A stretch of DNA of 64,000 nt from positions 416,001-480,000 of the forward strand of contig CAVRZA010000004.1 in the NCBI GenBank assembly GCA_963725665.1, in the 5' to 3' direction. This document shows, in pieces, positions 1,834-5,267 of the stretch. Below the pieces are notes generated by a model. The model made no database searches. It saw only the letters and a program-made list of their open reading frames with translations, and had not been told where the DNA came from. This DNA comes from an uncultured Actinomycetes bacterium. GTDB lineage: Bacteria; Actinomycetota; Thermoleophilia; UBA2241. A program made the translations under genes and the position numbers. Positions within the stretch are counted from its first letter, which is position 1, and every line of letters begins with the position of its first letter.

Positions 1834-2001
1834 GCTGCAGGACCTCCAGCTCGTCGCACGGGTGCGCCGCCGTCCCTCGTCGCGGCGCTTCGGGTCACGC
1901 GGACACGAAGGGATCCCGCTGGGCGGAGCGATCGTGTCGCTTCTCCCCGGGAGCATTCGCCCTTGCGTCGCGCCCGTGGTCGCAGTGGTCCGCGGCGGGT
2001 C

Positions 2002-2021
2002 TTGACCGGACGGTCGGTCAA
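2002..2021. promoter_or_regulatory. Palindromic operator, probable TetR site 1
   Basis: TTGACCG-GACGGT-CGGTCAA perfect 7-bp inverted repeat in the divergent intergenic region. Confidence 0.7.
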
Positions 2022-2102
2022 CGGGGCAAAGCATAGAACGGTGTCTGGCGCGACGTCAACGACGCGTCGGGTCGTGCTCGGCACGTGGCCCGACGCAGCC
2101 TG

Positions 2103-2122
2103 TTGCCCGGACGGTCGGTCAA
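2103..2122. promoter_or_regulatory. Palindromic operator, probable TetR site 2
   Basis: TTGCCCGGACGGTCGGTCAA, 19/20 identical to site 1, just upstream of TAGAAT (2129-2134). Confidence 0.65.
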
Positions 2123-2172
2123 CGCGTGTAGAATGGCGTGGCTCGCCGCAGACCAGGACGACAGGAGGACGG

Positions 2173-2826
2173 GTGACCGCCAAAGGGCCGCGCGGTGAGT
2201 CGGAGCCGCGGAGGATCTCGCTCGATGACCCCATGGCGACGCTCCCTTCCACGGCGCAGCGCATCCTCGCCGCGGCGCGCGGACTGCTCGAGGTGGACGG
2301 CTTCAGCGCCCTGCGGCTGCAGGCGATCTCGCGGGCGTCTGGCGAGCCAAAGGCGAGCATCGCGTACTACTTCGGCAACAAAGCTGGCCTCGTCGAAGCG
2401 CTCGTCGACTCGTTGATCCACGACGCCAACCTGGCGCTCATCACCGAGACCGAGTTGCTCCCGCTGGGGCAGGAGCGCGTTCATGCGCTCGTCGACGGCG
2501 AGACGCGCATCGTGGCGGACAGCGAGTCGTTTCGCGCCTTCTTCGACGTGCTTCCGCACGTGCTACGCGACGACCGTCTGCGGCCGCGCGTCGCCCGGCT
2601 CTACGACGGCTACCGGGAGACTGTGCTGCGCTGCCTGGGTGCCGGCACCCAGGCAGCGCAGCACAGTCTCCTCCCGCTGGCCATGCTGATGATCGCCATC
2701 GTCGACGGACTGGCCGTCCAGAGAGAGCTCGATCCCGAGCGCGTCGACGTGGCGTCGGCCACGCGGCTCTGGGAGGAGATGATGCAGACGTTCATGGCGC
2801 GCAAGGAGGAGGAGGAATCTCTATGA
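2173..2826 (+). CDS. TetR/AcrR family transcriptional regulator
   Basis: RILAAARGLLEVDGF...ASIAYYFGNKAGL HTH; AGGAGG RBS before GTG 2173; the last codons are supplied by the IS end. Confidence 0.9.
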   Translation: MTAKGPRGESEPRRISLDDPMATLPSTAQRILAAARGLLEVDGFSALRLQAISRASGEPKASIAYYFGNKAGLVEALVDSLIHDANLALITETELLPLGQERVHALVDGETRIVADSESFRAFFDVLPHVLRDDRLRPRVARLYDGYRETVLRCLGAGTQAAQHSLLPLAMLMIAIVDGLAVQRELDPERVDVASATRLWEEMMQTFMARKEEEESL

Positions 2827-4247
2827 CGATGTCAAGCCGCCGCGGCGGACCTGAACATCGTCTCGTCGCGAAGCATCGCCCAGATGACGTTCACCCGCCG
2901 CCGGGCAAGCGCGATCACGGCTTGGTGATGGCGCTTGCCCTCGGCCCGCTTGCGGTCGTAGAAGGCGCGCGAGGGCGGGCTGCGCAGACTGGCGAAGGCG
3001 GATTGGTAGAAGACCCGCTTAAGGACCTTGTTGCCCCCCTGCATACGGCGCACGTTGCCGCTTCGTTTGCCCGAGTCGCGGGCCACCGGGATGAGGCCGG
3101 CGTAGGCGGCCAGGTGGTCGGCGGAGGCGAAGCTGCTCAGCTCGCCCACCGCCACCAGGAACTCAGCGCCCAGGCGGGGGCCCATGCCCGGCAGGCTCAC
3201 CAGGATCTCCGCCTGGGGGTGGGAGAAAAAACGCCGCTCGAGCTCCTGGTCGAGCCGCGCCAGGCGCTCCTTTGTGGCCAGCACCTCGCTCGCCAGGTCG
3301 GCGACGATCGCGGCGCTCACCTCCTCGGCGGGCAGAGAAACGCTCTGGGCGCCCGCCGCCTTAAGGGCGCTCTCGGCCAGCTTGGCCGCTCCCCGGCAGC
3401 CGCGGGCGCGCAGGTAGGCCTCCAGGCGGCGGGCGCCGGCGCGGCGTACCTCGACCGGCGTGCGGTAGCGCTGCACGAGGAGCAGGGCGCCCTTGGTGGT
3501 GAGGTCCAGGGCGCGCTCCAGGCCGGGGAAGACGCCCACCAGCGCCGCGCGCAGGCGGGTGACGGCCCGTGTCTGGTCTTGAACCAGGTCGCGCCGCCGC
3601 GAGGTCAGCAGGGCCAGCTCGGCCAGCACCGCCTCGCTGGGGCGCAGCTCGGAAAGGTCACGGCGCGTGCGTGCCTGTTCGGCGATGATGCGCGCATCGC
3701 GGGCGTCGGTCTTGGCCTCTCCCCGGTAGGCGTCGCGGGAGCGGTTCACGGCCACGCCCGGCAGGTAGAGCACGCGCTCCTCGCCGCTCCACAGCACGGC
3801 CAGGGCGAGGGCGGCGACGCCGCCGGGGATGTCGAGAGCCCAGGTCGTCTGGCCGGCCTGAGCTCTGGCCTCGGCGATCAGCCGCCGCAGCTCGTCCTCG
3901 TCGTTCTCCACCCGGCGAGAGAAGACGAGGCGTCCCTCCTCATCGATCGCCGCCGCCCAGTGGAAGTCCTTGCCCGCGTCGATGCCCACCCACAGCCCAG
4001 CCATGGCCACCTCCTCGCTTCCGCCGACCCCTTGCCCGTGGAGCACCCCGCCGGCACCTCCCTACACAGCGATCGCTCGCCGATCTCTATCAGCGGTCAG
4101 GGCGTCCAAAGGGGCCGAGGGGCCATTCCTCCCGAGCCATGCGAGCGGCAGAGACATGACAGCCATCCTCGACCCTTCTGGGCGTCCCGGACGCTACCGC
4201 AAAGAGGGCTCACAGCAAAGAATCCGTACGCCACAGGAGAAAGGTAG
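2823..4247 (+). CDS. Element-long antisense ORF, equivalent to the IS900 hed ORF
   Basis: 474-codon ORF starting 6 nt after the host GGAGGAGGA RBS and ending 6 nt before the downstream gene start; translation not demonstrated. Confidence 0.45.
   Translation: MTMSSRRGGPEHRLVAKHRPDDVHPPPGKRDHGLVMALALGPLAVVEGARGRAAQTGEGGLVEDPLKDLVAPLHTAHVAASFARVAGHRDEAGVGGQVVGGGEAAQLAHRHQELSAQAGAHARQAHQDLRLGVGEKTPLELLVEPRQALLCGQHLARQVGDDRGAHLLGGQRNALGARRLKGALGQLGRSPAAAGAQVGLQAAGAGAAYLDRRAVALHEEQGALGGEVQGALQAGEDAHQRRAQAGDGPCLVLNQVAPPRGQQGQLGQHRLAGAQLGKVTARACLFGDDARIAGVGLGLSPVGVAGAVHGHARQVEHALLAAPQHGQGEGGDAAGDVESPGRLAGLSSGLGDQPPQLVLVVLHPAREDEASLLIDRRRPVEVLARVDAHPQPSHGHLLASADPLPVEHPAGTSLHSDRSPISISGQGVQRGRGAIPPEPCERQRHDSHPRPFWASRTLPQRGLTAKNPYATGER
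2832..4004 (-). CDS. IS110 transposase/recombinase (DEDD RuvC-like + Tnp20 domain)
   Basis: VGIDAGK, AKTDARDA, SLPGMG, LAAYAGL-P--RDSG, ALARRR motifs; GAGGAGG RBS upstream of ATG 4004. Confidence 0.95.
   Translation of the reverse strand: MAGLWVGIDAGKDFHWAAAIDEEGRLVFSRRVENDEDELRRLIAEARAQAGQTTWALDIPGGVAALALAVLWSGEERVLYLPGVAVNRSRDAYRGEAKTDARDARIIAEQARTRRDLSELRPSEAVLAELALLTSRRRDLVQDQTRAVTRLRAALVGVFPGLERALDLTTKGALLLVQRYRTPVEVRRAGARRLEAYLRARGCRGAAKLAESALKAAGAQSVSLPAEEVSAAIVADLASEVLATKERLARLDQELERRFFSHPQAEILVSLPGMGPRLGAEFLVAVGELSSFASADHLAAYAGLIPVARDSGKRSGNVRRMQGGNKVLKRVFYQSAFASLRSPPSRAFYDRKRAEGKRHHQAVIALARRRVNVIWAMLRDETMFRSAAAA
4010..4235 (-). ncRNA. Predicted IS110 bridge RNA (left-end non-coding region)
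   Basis: Four segments in the canonical order match target and donor: 4151-4159, 4127-4133, 4083-4090, 4059-4065; boundaries approximate. Confidence 0.65.
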
Positions 4248-4253
4248 GGAGGC

Positions 4254-5267
4254 GTGAAGGCGGCGGTCGTATGGGACCCGGCCTACCTGGAGCACGAGAT
4301 GGGTGGGCACCCGGAGGGAGCCGACAGGCTCTCGCACATCCTCGGCTACCTCGAGGCGAGCGATCTCTGGGCCCGTCTTACGGTGGTGAGCCCGCACGCG
4401 GCGACCATCGACGACCTGCTCGCGGTCCACACGCGCGCCTACGTCGAGATCGTCCGTCAGGCCGCCGCGAGCGGCGGCCGCTGGCTCGACCCCGACACCT
4501 ACGTCTCCCCGCGCAGCTTCGACATCGCCCTGCTGGCCGCCGGAGGAGCGCTCGACGCACTGGGCGGCTTCGAGCTCGGGGAGGCCCGCTTCGCGCTCGT
4601 GCGCCCGCCGGGCCATCACGCGCTCCCCGACCGCGCCATGGGGTTCTGCCTCTTCAACAACATCGCCATCGCCGCGCACCGGCTGCTGGCCGAAGGCCTC
4701 GAGCGCATCGCCATCGTGGACTGGGACGTGCACCACGGCAACGGCACGCAGGCCACCTTCATCGACGAGCCGCGGGTGCTCTTCTTCTCGCTGCACCAGT
4801 GGCCGCTCTACCCGGGCAGTGGGTGGTTCGACGAGTGTGGCGTGGGTGAGGGGGAGGGCTACACCGTCAACGTCCCGCTGCCTCCGGGGAGCCACGACGG
4901 CGACTATGCGAGGGCCTTCGACGAGATCGTCGGACCGATCGTCGATCTCTACCGGCCTCAGGCCGTGCTCGTCTCCGCCGGACAGGATCCGCATGCCGAC
5001 GACCCCTTGGCCAGCATGTCGCTCACCGAGGGCGGGTTCGCCCGGCTGGCCCGTCGCGTGCAGGAGCTCGCGCAGCGCCACTGCGAGGGCCGCCTGGCGC
5101 TGACCCTTGAGGGCGGCTACGAGCGCACAGCGACGGCGCACTCCGTGGCCGCCATCTTGCGCGCGCTTCTCGATGAGGATGCACCTGAGGTGGGGGGCGA
5201 GTCGGGTCGCGCCGCCGCCGCTATCGAGCAGGCCCTCAGCGTGCAGCGGGCCTACTGGGAGGTCTAG
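4254..5267 (+). CDS. Histone deacetylase family protein (possible acetylpolyamine deacetylase)
   Basis: GHPE, RPPGHHA, GFCLFNN, DWDVHHGNGT, SAGQD, LEGGY motifs. Confidence 0.93.
   Translation: MKAAVVWDPAYLEHEMGGHPEGADRLSHILGYLEASDLWARLTVVSPHAATIDDLLAVHTRAYVEIVRQAAASGGRWLDPDTYVSPRSFDIALLAAGGALDALGGFELGEARFALVRPPGHHALPDRAMGFCLFNNIAIAAHRLLAEGLERIAIVDWDVHHGNGTQATFIDEPRVLFFSLHQWPLYPGSGWFDECGVGEGEGYTVNVPLPPGSHDGDYARAFDEIVGPIVDLYRPQAVLVSAGQDPHADDPLASMSLTEGGFARLARRVQELAQRHCEGRLALTLEGGYERTATAHSVAAILRALLDEDAPEVGGESGRAAAAIEQALSVQRAYWEV

What the first reader, a model, noticed from the sequence alone, without database searches (positions are those of the whole stretch)
4010..4250. IS110 bridge RNA guides readable in sequence and programmed against Shine-Dalgarno plus start codon
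Seen on the minus strand, in 5'-3' order: UCAUGUCUC (4159-4151) matches the target arm TCACGCCTC spanning the GTG start, with two U-G wobbles. GGGAGGA (4133-4127) can pair with the TCCTCC anti-SD arm. AUAGAGAU (4090-4083) matches one element end and GUAGGGA (4065-4059) pairs with the other end TCCCTAC. Known: IS110 bridge RNAs have LTG-RTG-LDG-RDG guides in this order, and IS900-type elements insert between RBS and start codon. Inference: the guide spells CAT (anti-ATG, wobbling to GTG) plus an SD, making this a recombinase aimed generically at translation initiation sites.
Basis: partly seen in the sequence, partly recalled or inferred. Interest (0 to 1): 0.75.

Follow-up and report, generated by a model that had tools for sequence, protein, structure and literature searches.

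The report
IS110 bridge RNA targeting gene starts
This is an ordinary IS110-family mobile element whose guide ("bridge") RNA can be read straight from the DNA and steers insertion into the ribosome-binding site just ahead of a gene's start codon, a habit long known from its relative IS900.

Summary
All four strings sit at the stated coordinates. They match the flanks and ends of a 1,434-bp IS110-family element (minus strand, 2817-4248) flanked by a TC core on each side. A second, identical copy elsewhere in the genome has a left flank identical 9/9 to the proposed LTG. A consensus fold of 10 homologues puts the four segments in the unpaired sides of two internal loops. A covariance model finds this RNA upstream of the transposase gene in 89 of 93 sources, with 28 of 35 pairs showing compensatory changes. 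Across homologues the guides track their own flanks: LTG 6.63/9 against 4.28 for non-cognate pairs, and RTG 6.32/7 against 3.97. Handshake guides are also present. Both copies sit inside a Shine-Dalgarno sequence, 3 nt before a GTG or ATG start. "Generic" aim is overstated. The 14-nt code leaves 0 exact and 17 wobble-tolerant free sites, against 2,217 SD-start-like strings. Targeting of translation initiation signals is published for IS900. Verdict: a new member of a known kind. An element-spanning antisense, hed-like ORF is a side lead.

The parts
2817..4248 (-). IS110-family element, 1,432 bp between the two core copies (1,434 bp with one core)
   Evidence: The stretch 2815-4250 (1,436 bp, both cores included) is identical in the second copy, L002 1507-2942, and the flanks are unrelated. 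The right-end boundary lies at a fixed distance from TTGACW across homologues.
4249..4250 (-). Left copy of the core dinucleotide TC
   Evidence: The same dinucleotide lies at both junctions of both copies. In the family, TC is the core at 56 of 74 right junctions, and the core is the same on both sides in 53 of 58 elements.
4251..4257 (-). Left target (LT) of copy 1, TCACGCC. It contains CAC, the complement of the GTG start (4254-4256) of the deacetylase-family gene.
4244..4248 (-). Right donor (RD), CCTAC, the first bases of the left end
   Evidence: With the core it is the exact complement of the RDG.
4241..4246 (-). -10-like hexamer TACCTT. In a circular form it would lie 17 nt from the right-end TTGACA.
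   Evidence: Spacing counted. TANNNT is kept in 8 of the 9 distinct homologue left ends listed (the exception is TACCTG in L024). The match to TATAAT is only 3 of 6, so this is an inference.
4037..4182 (-). Bridge RNA core, as matched by covariance model R1
   Evidence: It is the only R1 hit in the 64-kb window: 129.8 bits, E 1.8e-23. In this sequence 33 of 35 consensus pairs are canonical.
4109..4178 (-). Target-binding loop module: outer stem 4178-4162 with 4123-4109, and inner hairpin 4149-4136
   Evidence: In helix 1, 14 of 15 pairs show changes on both sides.
4151..4159 (-). LTG, UCAUGUCUC, on the 5' side of the first internal loop
   Evidence: Unpaired in the consensus structure. It matches the copy-2 flank 9/9 and copy 1 with 7 identities plus 2 U:G.
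4127..4133 (-). RTG, GGGAGGA, on the 3' side of the first internal loop
   Evidence: It pairs with TC-CTCCT in both copies. It pairs 7/7 with TC-CTCCC in L028, whose transposase is 81% identical.
4125..4126 (-). Handshake guide of the target loop, AU, which pairs with donor positions 6-7 (AT)
   Evidence: The scheme is from PMC11208158. In the family this guide pairs 2/2 with the donor in 51 of 58 elements, and 2/2 with its own target in 7 of 58.
4041..4107 (-). Donor-binding loop module: outer stem 4107-4093 with 4055-4041, and inner hairpin 4080-4069
4083..4090 (-). LDG, AUAGAGAU, on the 5' side of the second internal loop
   Evidence: It is identical to right-end bases 2824-2817. In the family the cognate mean is 7.48/8 against 5.34 for non-cognate pairs.
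4059..4065 (-). RDG, GUAGGGA, on the 3' side of the second internal loop
   Evidence: It is the complement of TC-CCTAC, 4250-4244.
4057..4058 (-). Handshake guide of the donor loop, GG, which pairs with target positions 6-7 (CC in copy 1; TC in copy 2 with one G:T)
2832..4004 (-). Transposase (bridge recombinase) gene, 390 aa from ATG 4004. An upstream GTG at 4046 is also in frame.
   Evidence: D9, D58, D100, D103 and S311 are invariant in 10 homologues. Residues 264-384 (Tnp domain) match the IS621 and ISCro4 chains at E about 1e-12.
2830..2835 (-). -35 hexamer TTGACA, overlapping the transposase stop codon
   Evidence: TTGAC[AT] lies at the same distance (5 + 8 nt) from the core in nearly all homologues with a right end.
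2817..2824 (-). Left donor (LD), ATAGAGAT, the last 8 bases of the right end
2815..2816 (-). Right copy of the core dinucleotide TC
2810..2814 (-). Right target (RT), CTCCT. It is the complement of part of the host Shine-Dalgarno run GGAGGAGGAGGA.
2823..4247 (+). Antisense ORF of 474 codons spanning the whole element (hed-like). Its ATG lies 6 nt after the core, behind the host SD. Its stop, TAG 4245-4247, lies 6 nt before the host GTG and in the same frame.
   Evidence: It is intact in 23 of 54 unique homologue guide sets, including all 13 that sit at an SD plus start. No NCBIfam family matches it. Coding status is not shown.
1963..2826 (+). Host TetR-family gene. Its last codons now run into the element's right end (…EEEESL*).
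4254..5267 (+). Host histone-deacetylase-family gene, whose SD was the insertion site
   Evidence: In relatives of genus g6 (L004, L007) a TetR-family-like ORF end, an SD and an ATG precede the orthologue.

Best explanation
The region is the left-end non-coding part of an intact IS110-family insertion sequence, and it encodes a canonical bridge RNA.

The RNA forms two stem-enclosed internal loops. [quoted passage not shown] In the second, the LDG (4090-4083) and RDG (4065-4059) do the same with the element's own right and left ends, which abut in the excised circle.

Recombination occurs at a shared TC core. Two-nucleotide handshake guides behind the RTG and RDG pair with the other DNA after strand exchange.

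This element's target loop reads TCAYGYC-TC-CTCCY. On the other strand this is a Shine-Dalgarno run followed after 3 nt by ATG or GTG. The element therefore lands inside the SD of a gene, in one orientation, as IS900-type elements do.

Shown here: the sequence matches, the loop placement, the structural covariation, the guide-flank covariation, and two independent insertions at SD plus start. Inferred: transcription from a junction promoter in the circle, RNA-protein complex formation, and the chemistry.
For: - Family: Pfam PF01548 plus PF02371. NCBIfam NF033542 scores 233.9 bits against a cutoff of 140. The Tnp domain matches IS621 (8wt6) and ISCro4 (9t56) chains.
- Two copies: they are identical over 1,436 bp with unrelated flanks. 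The LTG matches the copy-2 flank 9/9.
- Chance: all four matches together occur in 0 of 20,000 shuffles.
- Structure: RNAalifold on 10 homologues gives 35 pairs, 24 with compensatory change, and all four segments lie in loop sides. Model R1 matches 89 of 93 sources, always upstream of the transposase match and on its strand. On 82 distinct rows, 92.4% of cells are paired against 38-54% when the partners are slid, and 28 of 35 pairs change on both sides against 14-20 when slid.
- Guide against flank, cognate against non-cognate: LTG 6.63/9 against 4.28 (59 unique pairs); RTG 6.32/7 against 3.97 (57 pairs); LDG 7.48/8 against 5.34 (33 pairs).
- Handshake guides: the target-loop guide pairs 2/2 with the donor in 51 of 58 elements, and 2/2 with its own target in 7 of 58.
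- Geometry: 7 + 2 + 5 nt, the same as IS621 positions 1-7, core 8-9 and 10-14 (passages of PMC11208158). The strand rules are as in PMC11208160.
- SD plus start: copy 1 has GA-GGC-GTG opening a 337-aa deacetylase-family ORF. Copy 2 has GA-GAC-ATG opening a 148-aa ORF.
- Published parallel: the IS900 target motif CATGNNNNNNTCTCCTT (PMC8141618).
Against: - There are no expression data. No RNA run holds the stretch, so transcription and RNA ends are unknown.
- No empty site or circle junction was recovered, so the pre-insertion sequences are reconstructions.
- The junction -10 is weak (TACCTT, 3 of 6), and the promoter scan found 0 sites in the integrated element.
- Rfam has no matching family.
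- The single-sequence fold is not better than shuffles (z -0.85).
- Unlike IS621, the LDG does not reach the core. The two bases after it match the core at 0 of 2 positions in 57 of 73 elements.
- The pair counts come from an alignment fitted to the model and lean towards it.
- The homologues are related, so the cognate against non-cognate contrasts are not independent samples.
- RDG-RD agreement is circular here, because the RDG was used to locate the left end.
- Near-cognate SD-start sites remain unoccupied. One example is TCACGCCTCCTCCT on contig C2, which opens a 232-aa ORF.
Confidence: 0.9

Rival explanations
1. The element is a bridge-RNA IS, but the SD-plus-start-codon content of its guides is incidental. 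The loops simply hold some 14-nt address that happens to resemble an SD followed by a start. No selection aims the element at translation initiation sites.
For: - Homologues with other loop sequences sit at unrelated sites. One large subclade sits at GAGAATTCC-TC-TTCCACG, with no start codon nearby.
- By my criteria only 13 of 54 unique guide sets lie at an SD plus start.
- The genome has only 17 wobble-tolerant free sites against 2,217 SD-start-like strings.
Against: - Both of the 2 copies are at SD plus start, in the same orientation.
- The 13 SD-start guide sets differ in sequence and in spacing (start 1-7 nt from the core), so the class recurs with different addresses.
- IS900 shows the same habit (motif in PMC8141618; Doran 1997, title only).
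- All 13 of these carry an intact element-spanning antisense ORF whose ATG sits 6 nt behind the host SD, against 10 of 41 others.
Confidence: 0.15
2. The 4005-4250 region is only a structured 5' leader that regulates transposase expression. The matches to flanks and ends are protein-recognised subterminal repeats, not RNA guides.
For: - The region lies directly upstream of the transposase ATG, with an SD at its 3' end.
- There is no direct evidence here that the RNA acts in trans.
- Small RNAs have been proposed to modulate recombinase expression for ISPpu9 (passage of PMC11208160).
Against: - The target-side matches (LTG, RTG) are to host DNA outside the element. They change with the insertion site among homologues while the stems are kept by compensatory change.
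- The strand asymmetry (the 5' loop side is same-sense, the 3' side antisense) and the handshake pattern reproduce the solved IS621 scheme.
Confidence: 0.03

Closest known systems
IS621 and related IS110-group elements with a left-end bridge RNA (Durrant et al. 2024, PMC11208160; Hiraizumi et al. 2024, PMC11208158; passages read)
   Same: - Two-domain DEDD/Tnp recombinase.
- RNA encoded in a long left end upstream of the gene.
- Two internal loops in the order LTG, RTG, LDG, RDG. The 5' loop sides pair with the bottom strand and the 3' sides with the top strand.
- 14-nt target geometry with the core at positions 8-9.
- 2-nt handshake guides.
- A -35 box in the right end that meets a -10-like box in the left end only in the circle.
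   Different: - The core is TC (NC, with C kept in 72 of 74 right junctions) instead of CT.
- The RTG is 7 nt, whereas the IS621 wild type has 4 nt.
- The LDG stops at the core rather than including it.
- Only the C-terminal domain aligns to the IS621 chain by phmmer.
- The natural target is an SD plus start codon. (That IS621 itself targets REP-type repeats is recalled; I did not see it in a call.)
IS900 of Mycobacterium avium subsp. paratuberculosis and its hed ORF (Conde et al. 2021, PMC8141618, passages read; Doran et al. 1997, title only)
   Same: - IS110 family.
- Inserts in one orientation at a motif made of the complement of ATG plus the complement of an SD.
- Carries an antisense ORF spanning the whole element that depends on host translation signals.
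   Different: - The IS900 motif is CATG-N6-TCTCCTT. Here it is CAYG-YC-TC-CTCCY, so the spacing and the exact address differ.
- The antisense ORF here has its own ATG, whereas IS900 hed is described as lacking an RBS and start codon.
- Protein similarity to IS900 was not tested, because no IS900 sequence was available in the tools.
- I found no paper in the library that holds both 'bridge RNA' and 'IS900'.
seekRNA of IS1111/IS110-type elements (Siddiquee et al. 2024, PMC11187229, passages read)
   Same: An RNA derived from the non-coding region co-determines the target, with short matches to both target strands. The non-coding region lies upstream of the gene in the IS110 type.
   Different: This is the same phenomenon under another name. 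The paper's tested elements are mostly IS1111-type, with the RNA downstream of the gene and the two strand matches in reversed order.

Membership tests
IS110-family bridge-RNA recombinase system (IS110 group) | Recombinase with an N-terminal RuvC-like DEDD domain and a C-terminal Tnp domain | tested here: met
   PF01548 at E 1.5e-46 (residues 6-160) and PF02371 at E 4e-20 (residues 266-349). NF033542 scores 233.9 bits against a cutoff of 140.
IS110-family bridge-RNA recombinase system (IS110 group) | Conserved acidic tetrad and catalytic serine | tested here: met
   D9, D58, D100, D103 and S311 are invariant in 10 homologues with 39-63% identity to the window's protein. S311-G312 aligns with an S-G in the ISCro4 chain. 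Equivalence with IS621 S241 and its tetrad is inferred, not aligned here. The second acidic residue is D, not E.
IS110-family bridge-RNA recombinase system (IS110 group) | Long non-coding left end encoding an RNA with two stem-enclosed internal loops | tested here: met
   The left end is 244 nt (4248-4005). Consensus fold. The model matches 89 of 93 sources. 28 of 35 pairs have compensatory change. 33 of 35 pairs are canonical in this copy.
IS110-family bridge-RNA recombinase system (IS110 group) | First loop: the 5' side is same-sense to the left flank plus core, and the 3' side is complementary to the core plus right flank | tested here: met
   9/9 for copy 2; 7 identities plus 2 U:G for copy 1; RTG has 6 Watson-Crick pairs plus 1 G:T. 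Family covariation.
IS110-family bridge-RNA recombinase system (IS110 group) | Second loop: guides match the element's own right end (LD) and left end (RD), each including the core | tested here: inconclusive
   LDG matches 8/8 and RDG 7/7 with the core. But the LDG does not extend over the core: the next two bases match it at 0 of 2 positions in 57 of 73 elements. The feature is met apart from core coverage by the LDG.
IS110-family bridge-RNA recombinase system (IS110 group) | Handshake guides 3' of the RTG and RDG that pair with the non-cognate DNA | tested here: met
   AU against donor AT. GG against target CC (copy 1) or TC (copy 2). Family counts.
IS110-family bridge-RNA recombinase system (IS110 group) | The same core dinucleotide at both junctions, with no terminal inverted repeats and no longer target duplication | tested here: met
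   TC lies at 4250-4249 and at 2816-2815, and in copy 2. The core is the same on both sides in 53 of 58 homologues. An inverted-repeat search of the ends was not run separately.
IS110-family bridge-RNA recombinase system (IS110 group) | [quoted passage not shown] | tested here: inconclusive
   TTGACA (6/6), 17 nt, then TACCTT (3/6, with T1, A2 and T6 kept), counted. No promoter-like site was found in the integrated form. No circle junction was seen in contigs.
IS110-family bridge-RNA recombinase system (IS110 group) | The RNA is expressed, binds the recombinase and dictates target choice | not testable with these tools
   No RNA run was listed for the stretch.
IS900-type elements that target translation initiation signals | Insertion between or inside the SD and the start codon, in a fixed orientation | tested here: met
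   True for 2 of 2 copies. The core lies 3 nt before GTG or ATG, and the transposase is antisense to the host gene.
IS900-type elements that target translation initiation signals | Target motif CATG-N6-TCTCCTT | tested here: not met
   Here the reconstructed target is TCA[C/T]G[C/T]C-TC-CTCCT. It has the same two components but a different spacing and sequence. The element works like IS900 but does not share its address.
IS900-type elements that target translation initiation signals | An antisense ORF (hed) spanning the element | tested here: met
   The + strand ORF 2823-4247 has 474 codons. Whether it is translated is unknown.
IS900-type elements that target translation initiation signals | Close protein relationship to the IS900 transposase | not tested
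   No IS900 sequence was available in the collections I searched.

The most novel reading that the evidence does not exclude
In this clade the bridge-RNA address and the element's ends may be co-adapted so that insertion splices the element into a host translation unit.

- The RTG is itself an SD sequence, so the element lands inside a host SD.
- The right end supplies an ATG exactly 6 nt behind that SD. This ATG opens an antisense ORF of about 475 codons spanning the whole element.
- The left end supplies that ORF's stop codon together with a replacement SD (TAGGGAGG), 6 nt before the displaced host start codon and in the same frame.
- Both the hed-like protein and the host gene could then be translated from the host message.

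The support is correlative. All 13 unique guide sets at SD plus start have the ORF intact, against 10 of the 41 others. Broken elements average 6.1 stops in that frame.

G+C content (0.68 against 0.63) and shared ancestry confound this.
Probability: 0.3. Interest if true: 0.6.

Novelty: new member of a known kind. Interest (0 to 1): 0.35.

Why it matters
The finding gives a base-by-base, RNA-guided explanation for a habit of IS900-type elements first described in 1997: insertion at translation initiation signals. I did not find this link stated in the held library. No paper holds both 'bridge RNA' and 'IS900'. 'Shine-Dalgarno' does not occur in 11 of the 12 papers listed, including the two 2024 Nature papers and the other bridge-RNA mechanism papers.

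In practice it adds about 50 distinct natural guide sets with a TC/NC core, a 7-nt RTG and an LDG that stops at the core. That is useful comparative material for bridge-recombinase engineering. It also flags that in this genome a TetR/deacetylase gene pair and one other gene have had their SD region rebuilt by the element.

Tried and rejected
- Rfam: no bridge-RNA family matched at E <= 1 in 2600-4500. The only strong hits were microRNA models on an unrelated palindrome.
- Single-sequence fold of 4005-4250: z -0.85, so it was uninformative. Only the comparative fold was useful.
- Empty site: 41 related genomes were searched with the deacetylase-family gene flank. 33 had a match, but the best was 77% identical (other genera), and their TetR/deacetylase junctions differ. 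The exact pre-insertion sequence was therefore not recovered.
- Genome-contig scan with the single protein: 4 loci only.
- Class-level genome search: 7 of 401 genomes at E <= 1e-40.
- Sequencing runs: no RNA holder was listed. Contigs of 4 DNA metagenome runs covered parts of the element and stopped near its ends (2809, 2821, 4252). They showed no joints, so neither an empty site nor a circle junction was seen.
- Other core placements (AT, CT, or TC shifted by 3 nt) were considered by eye. I dropped them because only TC at 4250-4249 and 2816-2815 fits LTG, RTG, RDG and both handshake guides together, and it agrees with the fixed TTGACW + 13 nt rule in homologues.
- A one-base DNA bulge that would let the LDG cover the core was rejected. 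It fails for GC-core elements.
- My guess that L020 and L021 are inserted in a tRNA gene: ARAGORN found 0 genes. Not supported.
- Promoter scan of the integrated element: 0 sites.
- The antisense ORF has no NCBIfam match.
- Rows dropped: of 89 model matches, 2 were truncated. Of the remaining 87, the left junction could be placed in 67 and the right junction in 76. The rest ended at a contig end, or lacked an RDG complement or a TTGACW. The counts use unique guide/flank combinations only.
- Supplementary files of papers were not consulted (closed).
Full report
**What is there.** On the minus strand of the window lies a 390-codon gene (4004-2832). It has the two domains of IS110-family recombinases: PF01548 at E 1.5e-46 and PF02371 at E 4e-20. 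It passes NCBIfam's model 'IS110 family RNA-guided transposase' with 233.9 bits against a cutoff of 140. Its C-terminal domain aligns with the solved IS621 and ISCro4 transposases at E about 1e-12. D9, D58, D100, D103 and S311 are invariant among 10 homologues. The gene is preceded by a 244-nt non-coding left end (4248-4005) and followed by a very short right end (2831-2817). The element sits between a TetR-family gene (+ strand, 1963-2826) and a histone-deacetylase-family gene (+ strand, GTG at 4254).

**A second copy fixes the boundaries.** The genome holds one more copy, on contig C11. The stretch 2815-4250 (1,436 bp) is identical in both copies, and the sequences beyond are unrelated apart from short target-like strings. 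Read on the transposase strand, the junctions are:
- copy 1: …TTCACGCC-TC-CCTACC… and …CATAGAGAT-TC-CTCCTCC…
- copy 2: …TTCATGTC-TC-CCTACC… and …CATAGAGAT-TC-CTCCTCT…

The element is thus flanked by the same TC dinucleotide on both sides, as IS110 elements are flanked by their core (passages of PMC11208158).

**Checking the observation.**
- UCAUGUCUC (4159-4151) equals the copy-2 left flank plus core 9/9. It matches copy 1 with two U:G wobbles.
- GGGAGGA (4133-4127) pairs with the core plus right flank TC-CTCCT, with one G:T.
- AUAGAGAU (4090-4083) equals the last 8 nt of the right end.
- GUAGGGA (4065-4059) is the complement of the core plus the first 5 nt of the left end.

In 20,000 shuffles of the left end, each match is rare on its own (0.0003, 0.045, 0.0003 and 0.018, in the order above). 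All four never occurred together.

The strand logic is exactly that published for IS621. [quoted passage not shown] I add two features. The two bases after the RTG (AU) pair with donor positions 6-7 (AT). The two bases after the RDG (GG) pair with target positions 6-7 (CC in copy 1; TC in copy 2 with one G:T). These are the handshake guides of Hiraizumi et al..

**Are the segments in loops?** A single-sequence fold is uninformative (z -0.85) and Rfam has no matching family, so I used homologues.
- Sources: 4 loci from species genomes, 6 further genomes out of 400 of the same class and 80 metagenome loci.
- RNAalifold on 10 sequences gives 35 pairs, 24 with compensatory change. They form two stem-enclosed internal loops, each closed by a short hairpin.
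- A covariance model built from these finds one match in each of 89 of 93 sources. Each match is upstream of the transposase match and on its strand. The model hits only once in the 64-kb window, at 4182-4037.
- The four sources without a match are L018, L070, L073 and L103. Three of them have at most 101 nt upstream of the gene.
- On 82 distinct rows, 92.4% of cells are paired, against 38-54% when the partners are slid. 28 of 35 pairs change on both sides, against 14-20 when slid. That alignment was fitted to the model and so leans towards it.
- In the window's copy 33 of 35 pairs are canonical. The four segments lie wholly in the unpaired loop sides: 4161-4150, 4135-4124, 4092-4081 and 4068-4056.

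**Do the guides follow the flanks?** I placed right ends by a guide-independent rule: TTGAC[AT] + 13 nt, then the core. I placed left ends by the complement of the RDG. I then compared each loop side with its own flank and with the flanks of other elements.

| Guide | Unique pairs | Cognate mean | Non-cognate mean |
|---|---|---|---|
| LTG | 59 | 6.63 of 9 | 4.28 (sd 1.20) |
| RTG | 57 | 6.32 of 7 | 3.97 |
| LDG | 33 | 7.48 of 8 | 5.34 |

For the RTG, 51 of 57 pairs score at least 6. The RDG comparison is circular and I do not count it. Six of the 59 LTG pairs score only 3. Three copies in one assembly (L104, L105, L107) match on the left target but not the right.

The target-loop handshake guide pairs 2/2 with the donor in 51 of 58 elements, and 2/2 with its own target in 7 of 58. 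The donor-loop guide pairs 2/2 with the target in 19 of 57, and 2/2 with its own donor in 4 of 57.

There are three differences from IS621. The core is NC (TC 56, GC 12, AC 4, other 2, of 74 right junctions) rather than CT. The RTG is 7 nt. The LDG stops at the core.

**What the guides address.** On the host-gene strand the reconstructed target of copy 1 is …GGAGGAG-GA-GGC-GTG…, and that of copy 2 is …GAGGAG-GA-GAC-ATG…. Each is a Shine-Dalgarno run with the core inside it, 3 nt before the start codon of a 337-aa and a 148-aa ORF respectively.

The aim is not generic. The genome contains no further exact 14-mer and 17 wobble-tolerant ones. Five of those 17 open ORFs of more than 200 aa. By comparison there are 2,217 GGAGG-N4-9-RTG strings. 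Among 54 unique homologue guide sets with both junctions, 13 lie at an SD-like string plus a start codon. For this I required an ORF of at least 60 aa, or one running off the contig, starting within 8 nt of the core. The other 41 do not meet these criteria, and they include a large subclade at GAGAATTCC-TC-TTCCACG.

**How it most likely works.** This part is inferred by analogy with IS621, apart from the sequence facts above.
1. Excision abuts the right and left ends. A perfect TTGACA (2835-2830) then lies 17 nt from TACCTT (4246-4241). No promoter-like site exists in the integrated form.
2. The RNA is made from the circle and binds the recombinase.
3. Its second loop holds the circle junction and its first loop holds a host SD-start site.
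4. The strands are exchanged at the TC core, with the handshake bases stabilising the exchanged top strands.

**Comparison with what is known.** The system is a member of the IS110 group with left-end bridge RNAs. In target habit it behaves like IS900. For IS900 a motif CATGNNNNNNTCTCCTT and an antisense, host-expression-dependent ORF (hed) are described (PMC8141618). [quoted passage not shown] The address here differs in spacing and sequence, so it is not the IS900 motif.

I found no paper holding both 'bridge RNA' and 'IS900'. The main text of PMC11208160 has no occurrence of IS900, start codon or Mycobacterium. 'Shine-Dalgarno' has no occurrence in 11 of the 12 papers listed, including the bridge-RNA mechanism papers. 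The seekRNA paper does not discuss such targets. Supplements were closed and may contain predictions for such elements.

**Side lead.** The + strand carries a 474-codon ORF (2823-4247) spanning the element.
- Its ATG lies 6 nt after the core, directly behind the host SD. In copy 1 it overlaps the TetR stop codon as ATGA.
- Its TAG stop (4245-4247) lies in the left-end tip, 6 nt before the host GTG and in the same frame. It is embedded in a new SD-like GGGAGG.
- The same ORF is intact in 23 of 54 unique homologue guide sets. These include all 13 at SD plus start and 10 of the 41 others. Broken ones average 6.1 stops in that frame.
- Intact elements are richer in G+C (0.68 against 0.63), and the sets are related. 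This is a correlation, not proof of coding.

**Verdict.** It is a new member of a known kind, of moderate interest mainly as comparative material and for the hed-like lead.

Noticed in passing
window 2823-4247 (+): A 474-codon antisense ORF spans the whole element. Its ATG lies 6 nt behind the host SD, and its stop lies 6 nt before the displaced host start codon, in the same frame. It is intact in 23 of 54 unique homologue guide sets, including all 13 that sit at an SD plus start. It resembles IS900 hed.
   Followed up: partly
window 2616-2671: A perfect 56-bp palindrome with no spacer (28-nt arms) lies inside the TetR-family ORF. It caused the microRNA 'hits' in Rfam. The arm is unique in the genome. 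The genome nevertheless holds 27 perfect spacer-less palindromes of 40-70 bp, far above chance. Whether they are a real feature or an assembly artefact was not resolved.
   Followed up: partly
L104, L105, L107 (three copies in one metagenome assembly): The three copies share the same guides. All three left flanks match the LTG (TCATGCC-GC), but the right flanks (TGTCC, AGCCT, TGCCT) do not match the RTG-predicted CACCT. These look like insertions matched on one half only.
   Followed up: no
L022 around 1260-1283 and downstream of its right end: The left-flank string ATCGAAAAGTTGACC recurs about 10 nt downstream of the right junction, followed by ACC. This suggests a second, unoccupied copy of the target, or a repeat family used as the target.
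   Followed up: no
About 20 metagenome loci (e.g. L029, L031, L037, L063, L097): A subclade with the target-loop sequences TTGAGAATTCCT and GGAAGA is always found at GAGAATTCC-TC-TTCCACG-like sites with no start codon nearby, and its antisense ORF is broken. The target may be a dispersed repeat.
   Followed up: no
G000 contig C2 (minus strand; site TCACGCCTCCTCCT) and C8 (TCACGCCTCCTCCC): These are unoccupied near-cognate SD-start-like sites. The C2 site has the same 14 nt as the reconstructed copy-1 target and opens a 232-aa ORF.
   Followed up: partly
L018 about 870-960: A degenerate relative has a donor-loop-like segment (…TAATAGAGATTGGCG…GTAGGGAGC…), no target loop, and a transposase ORF cut at 49 codons. 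The covariance model did not match it.
   Followed up: no
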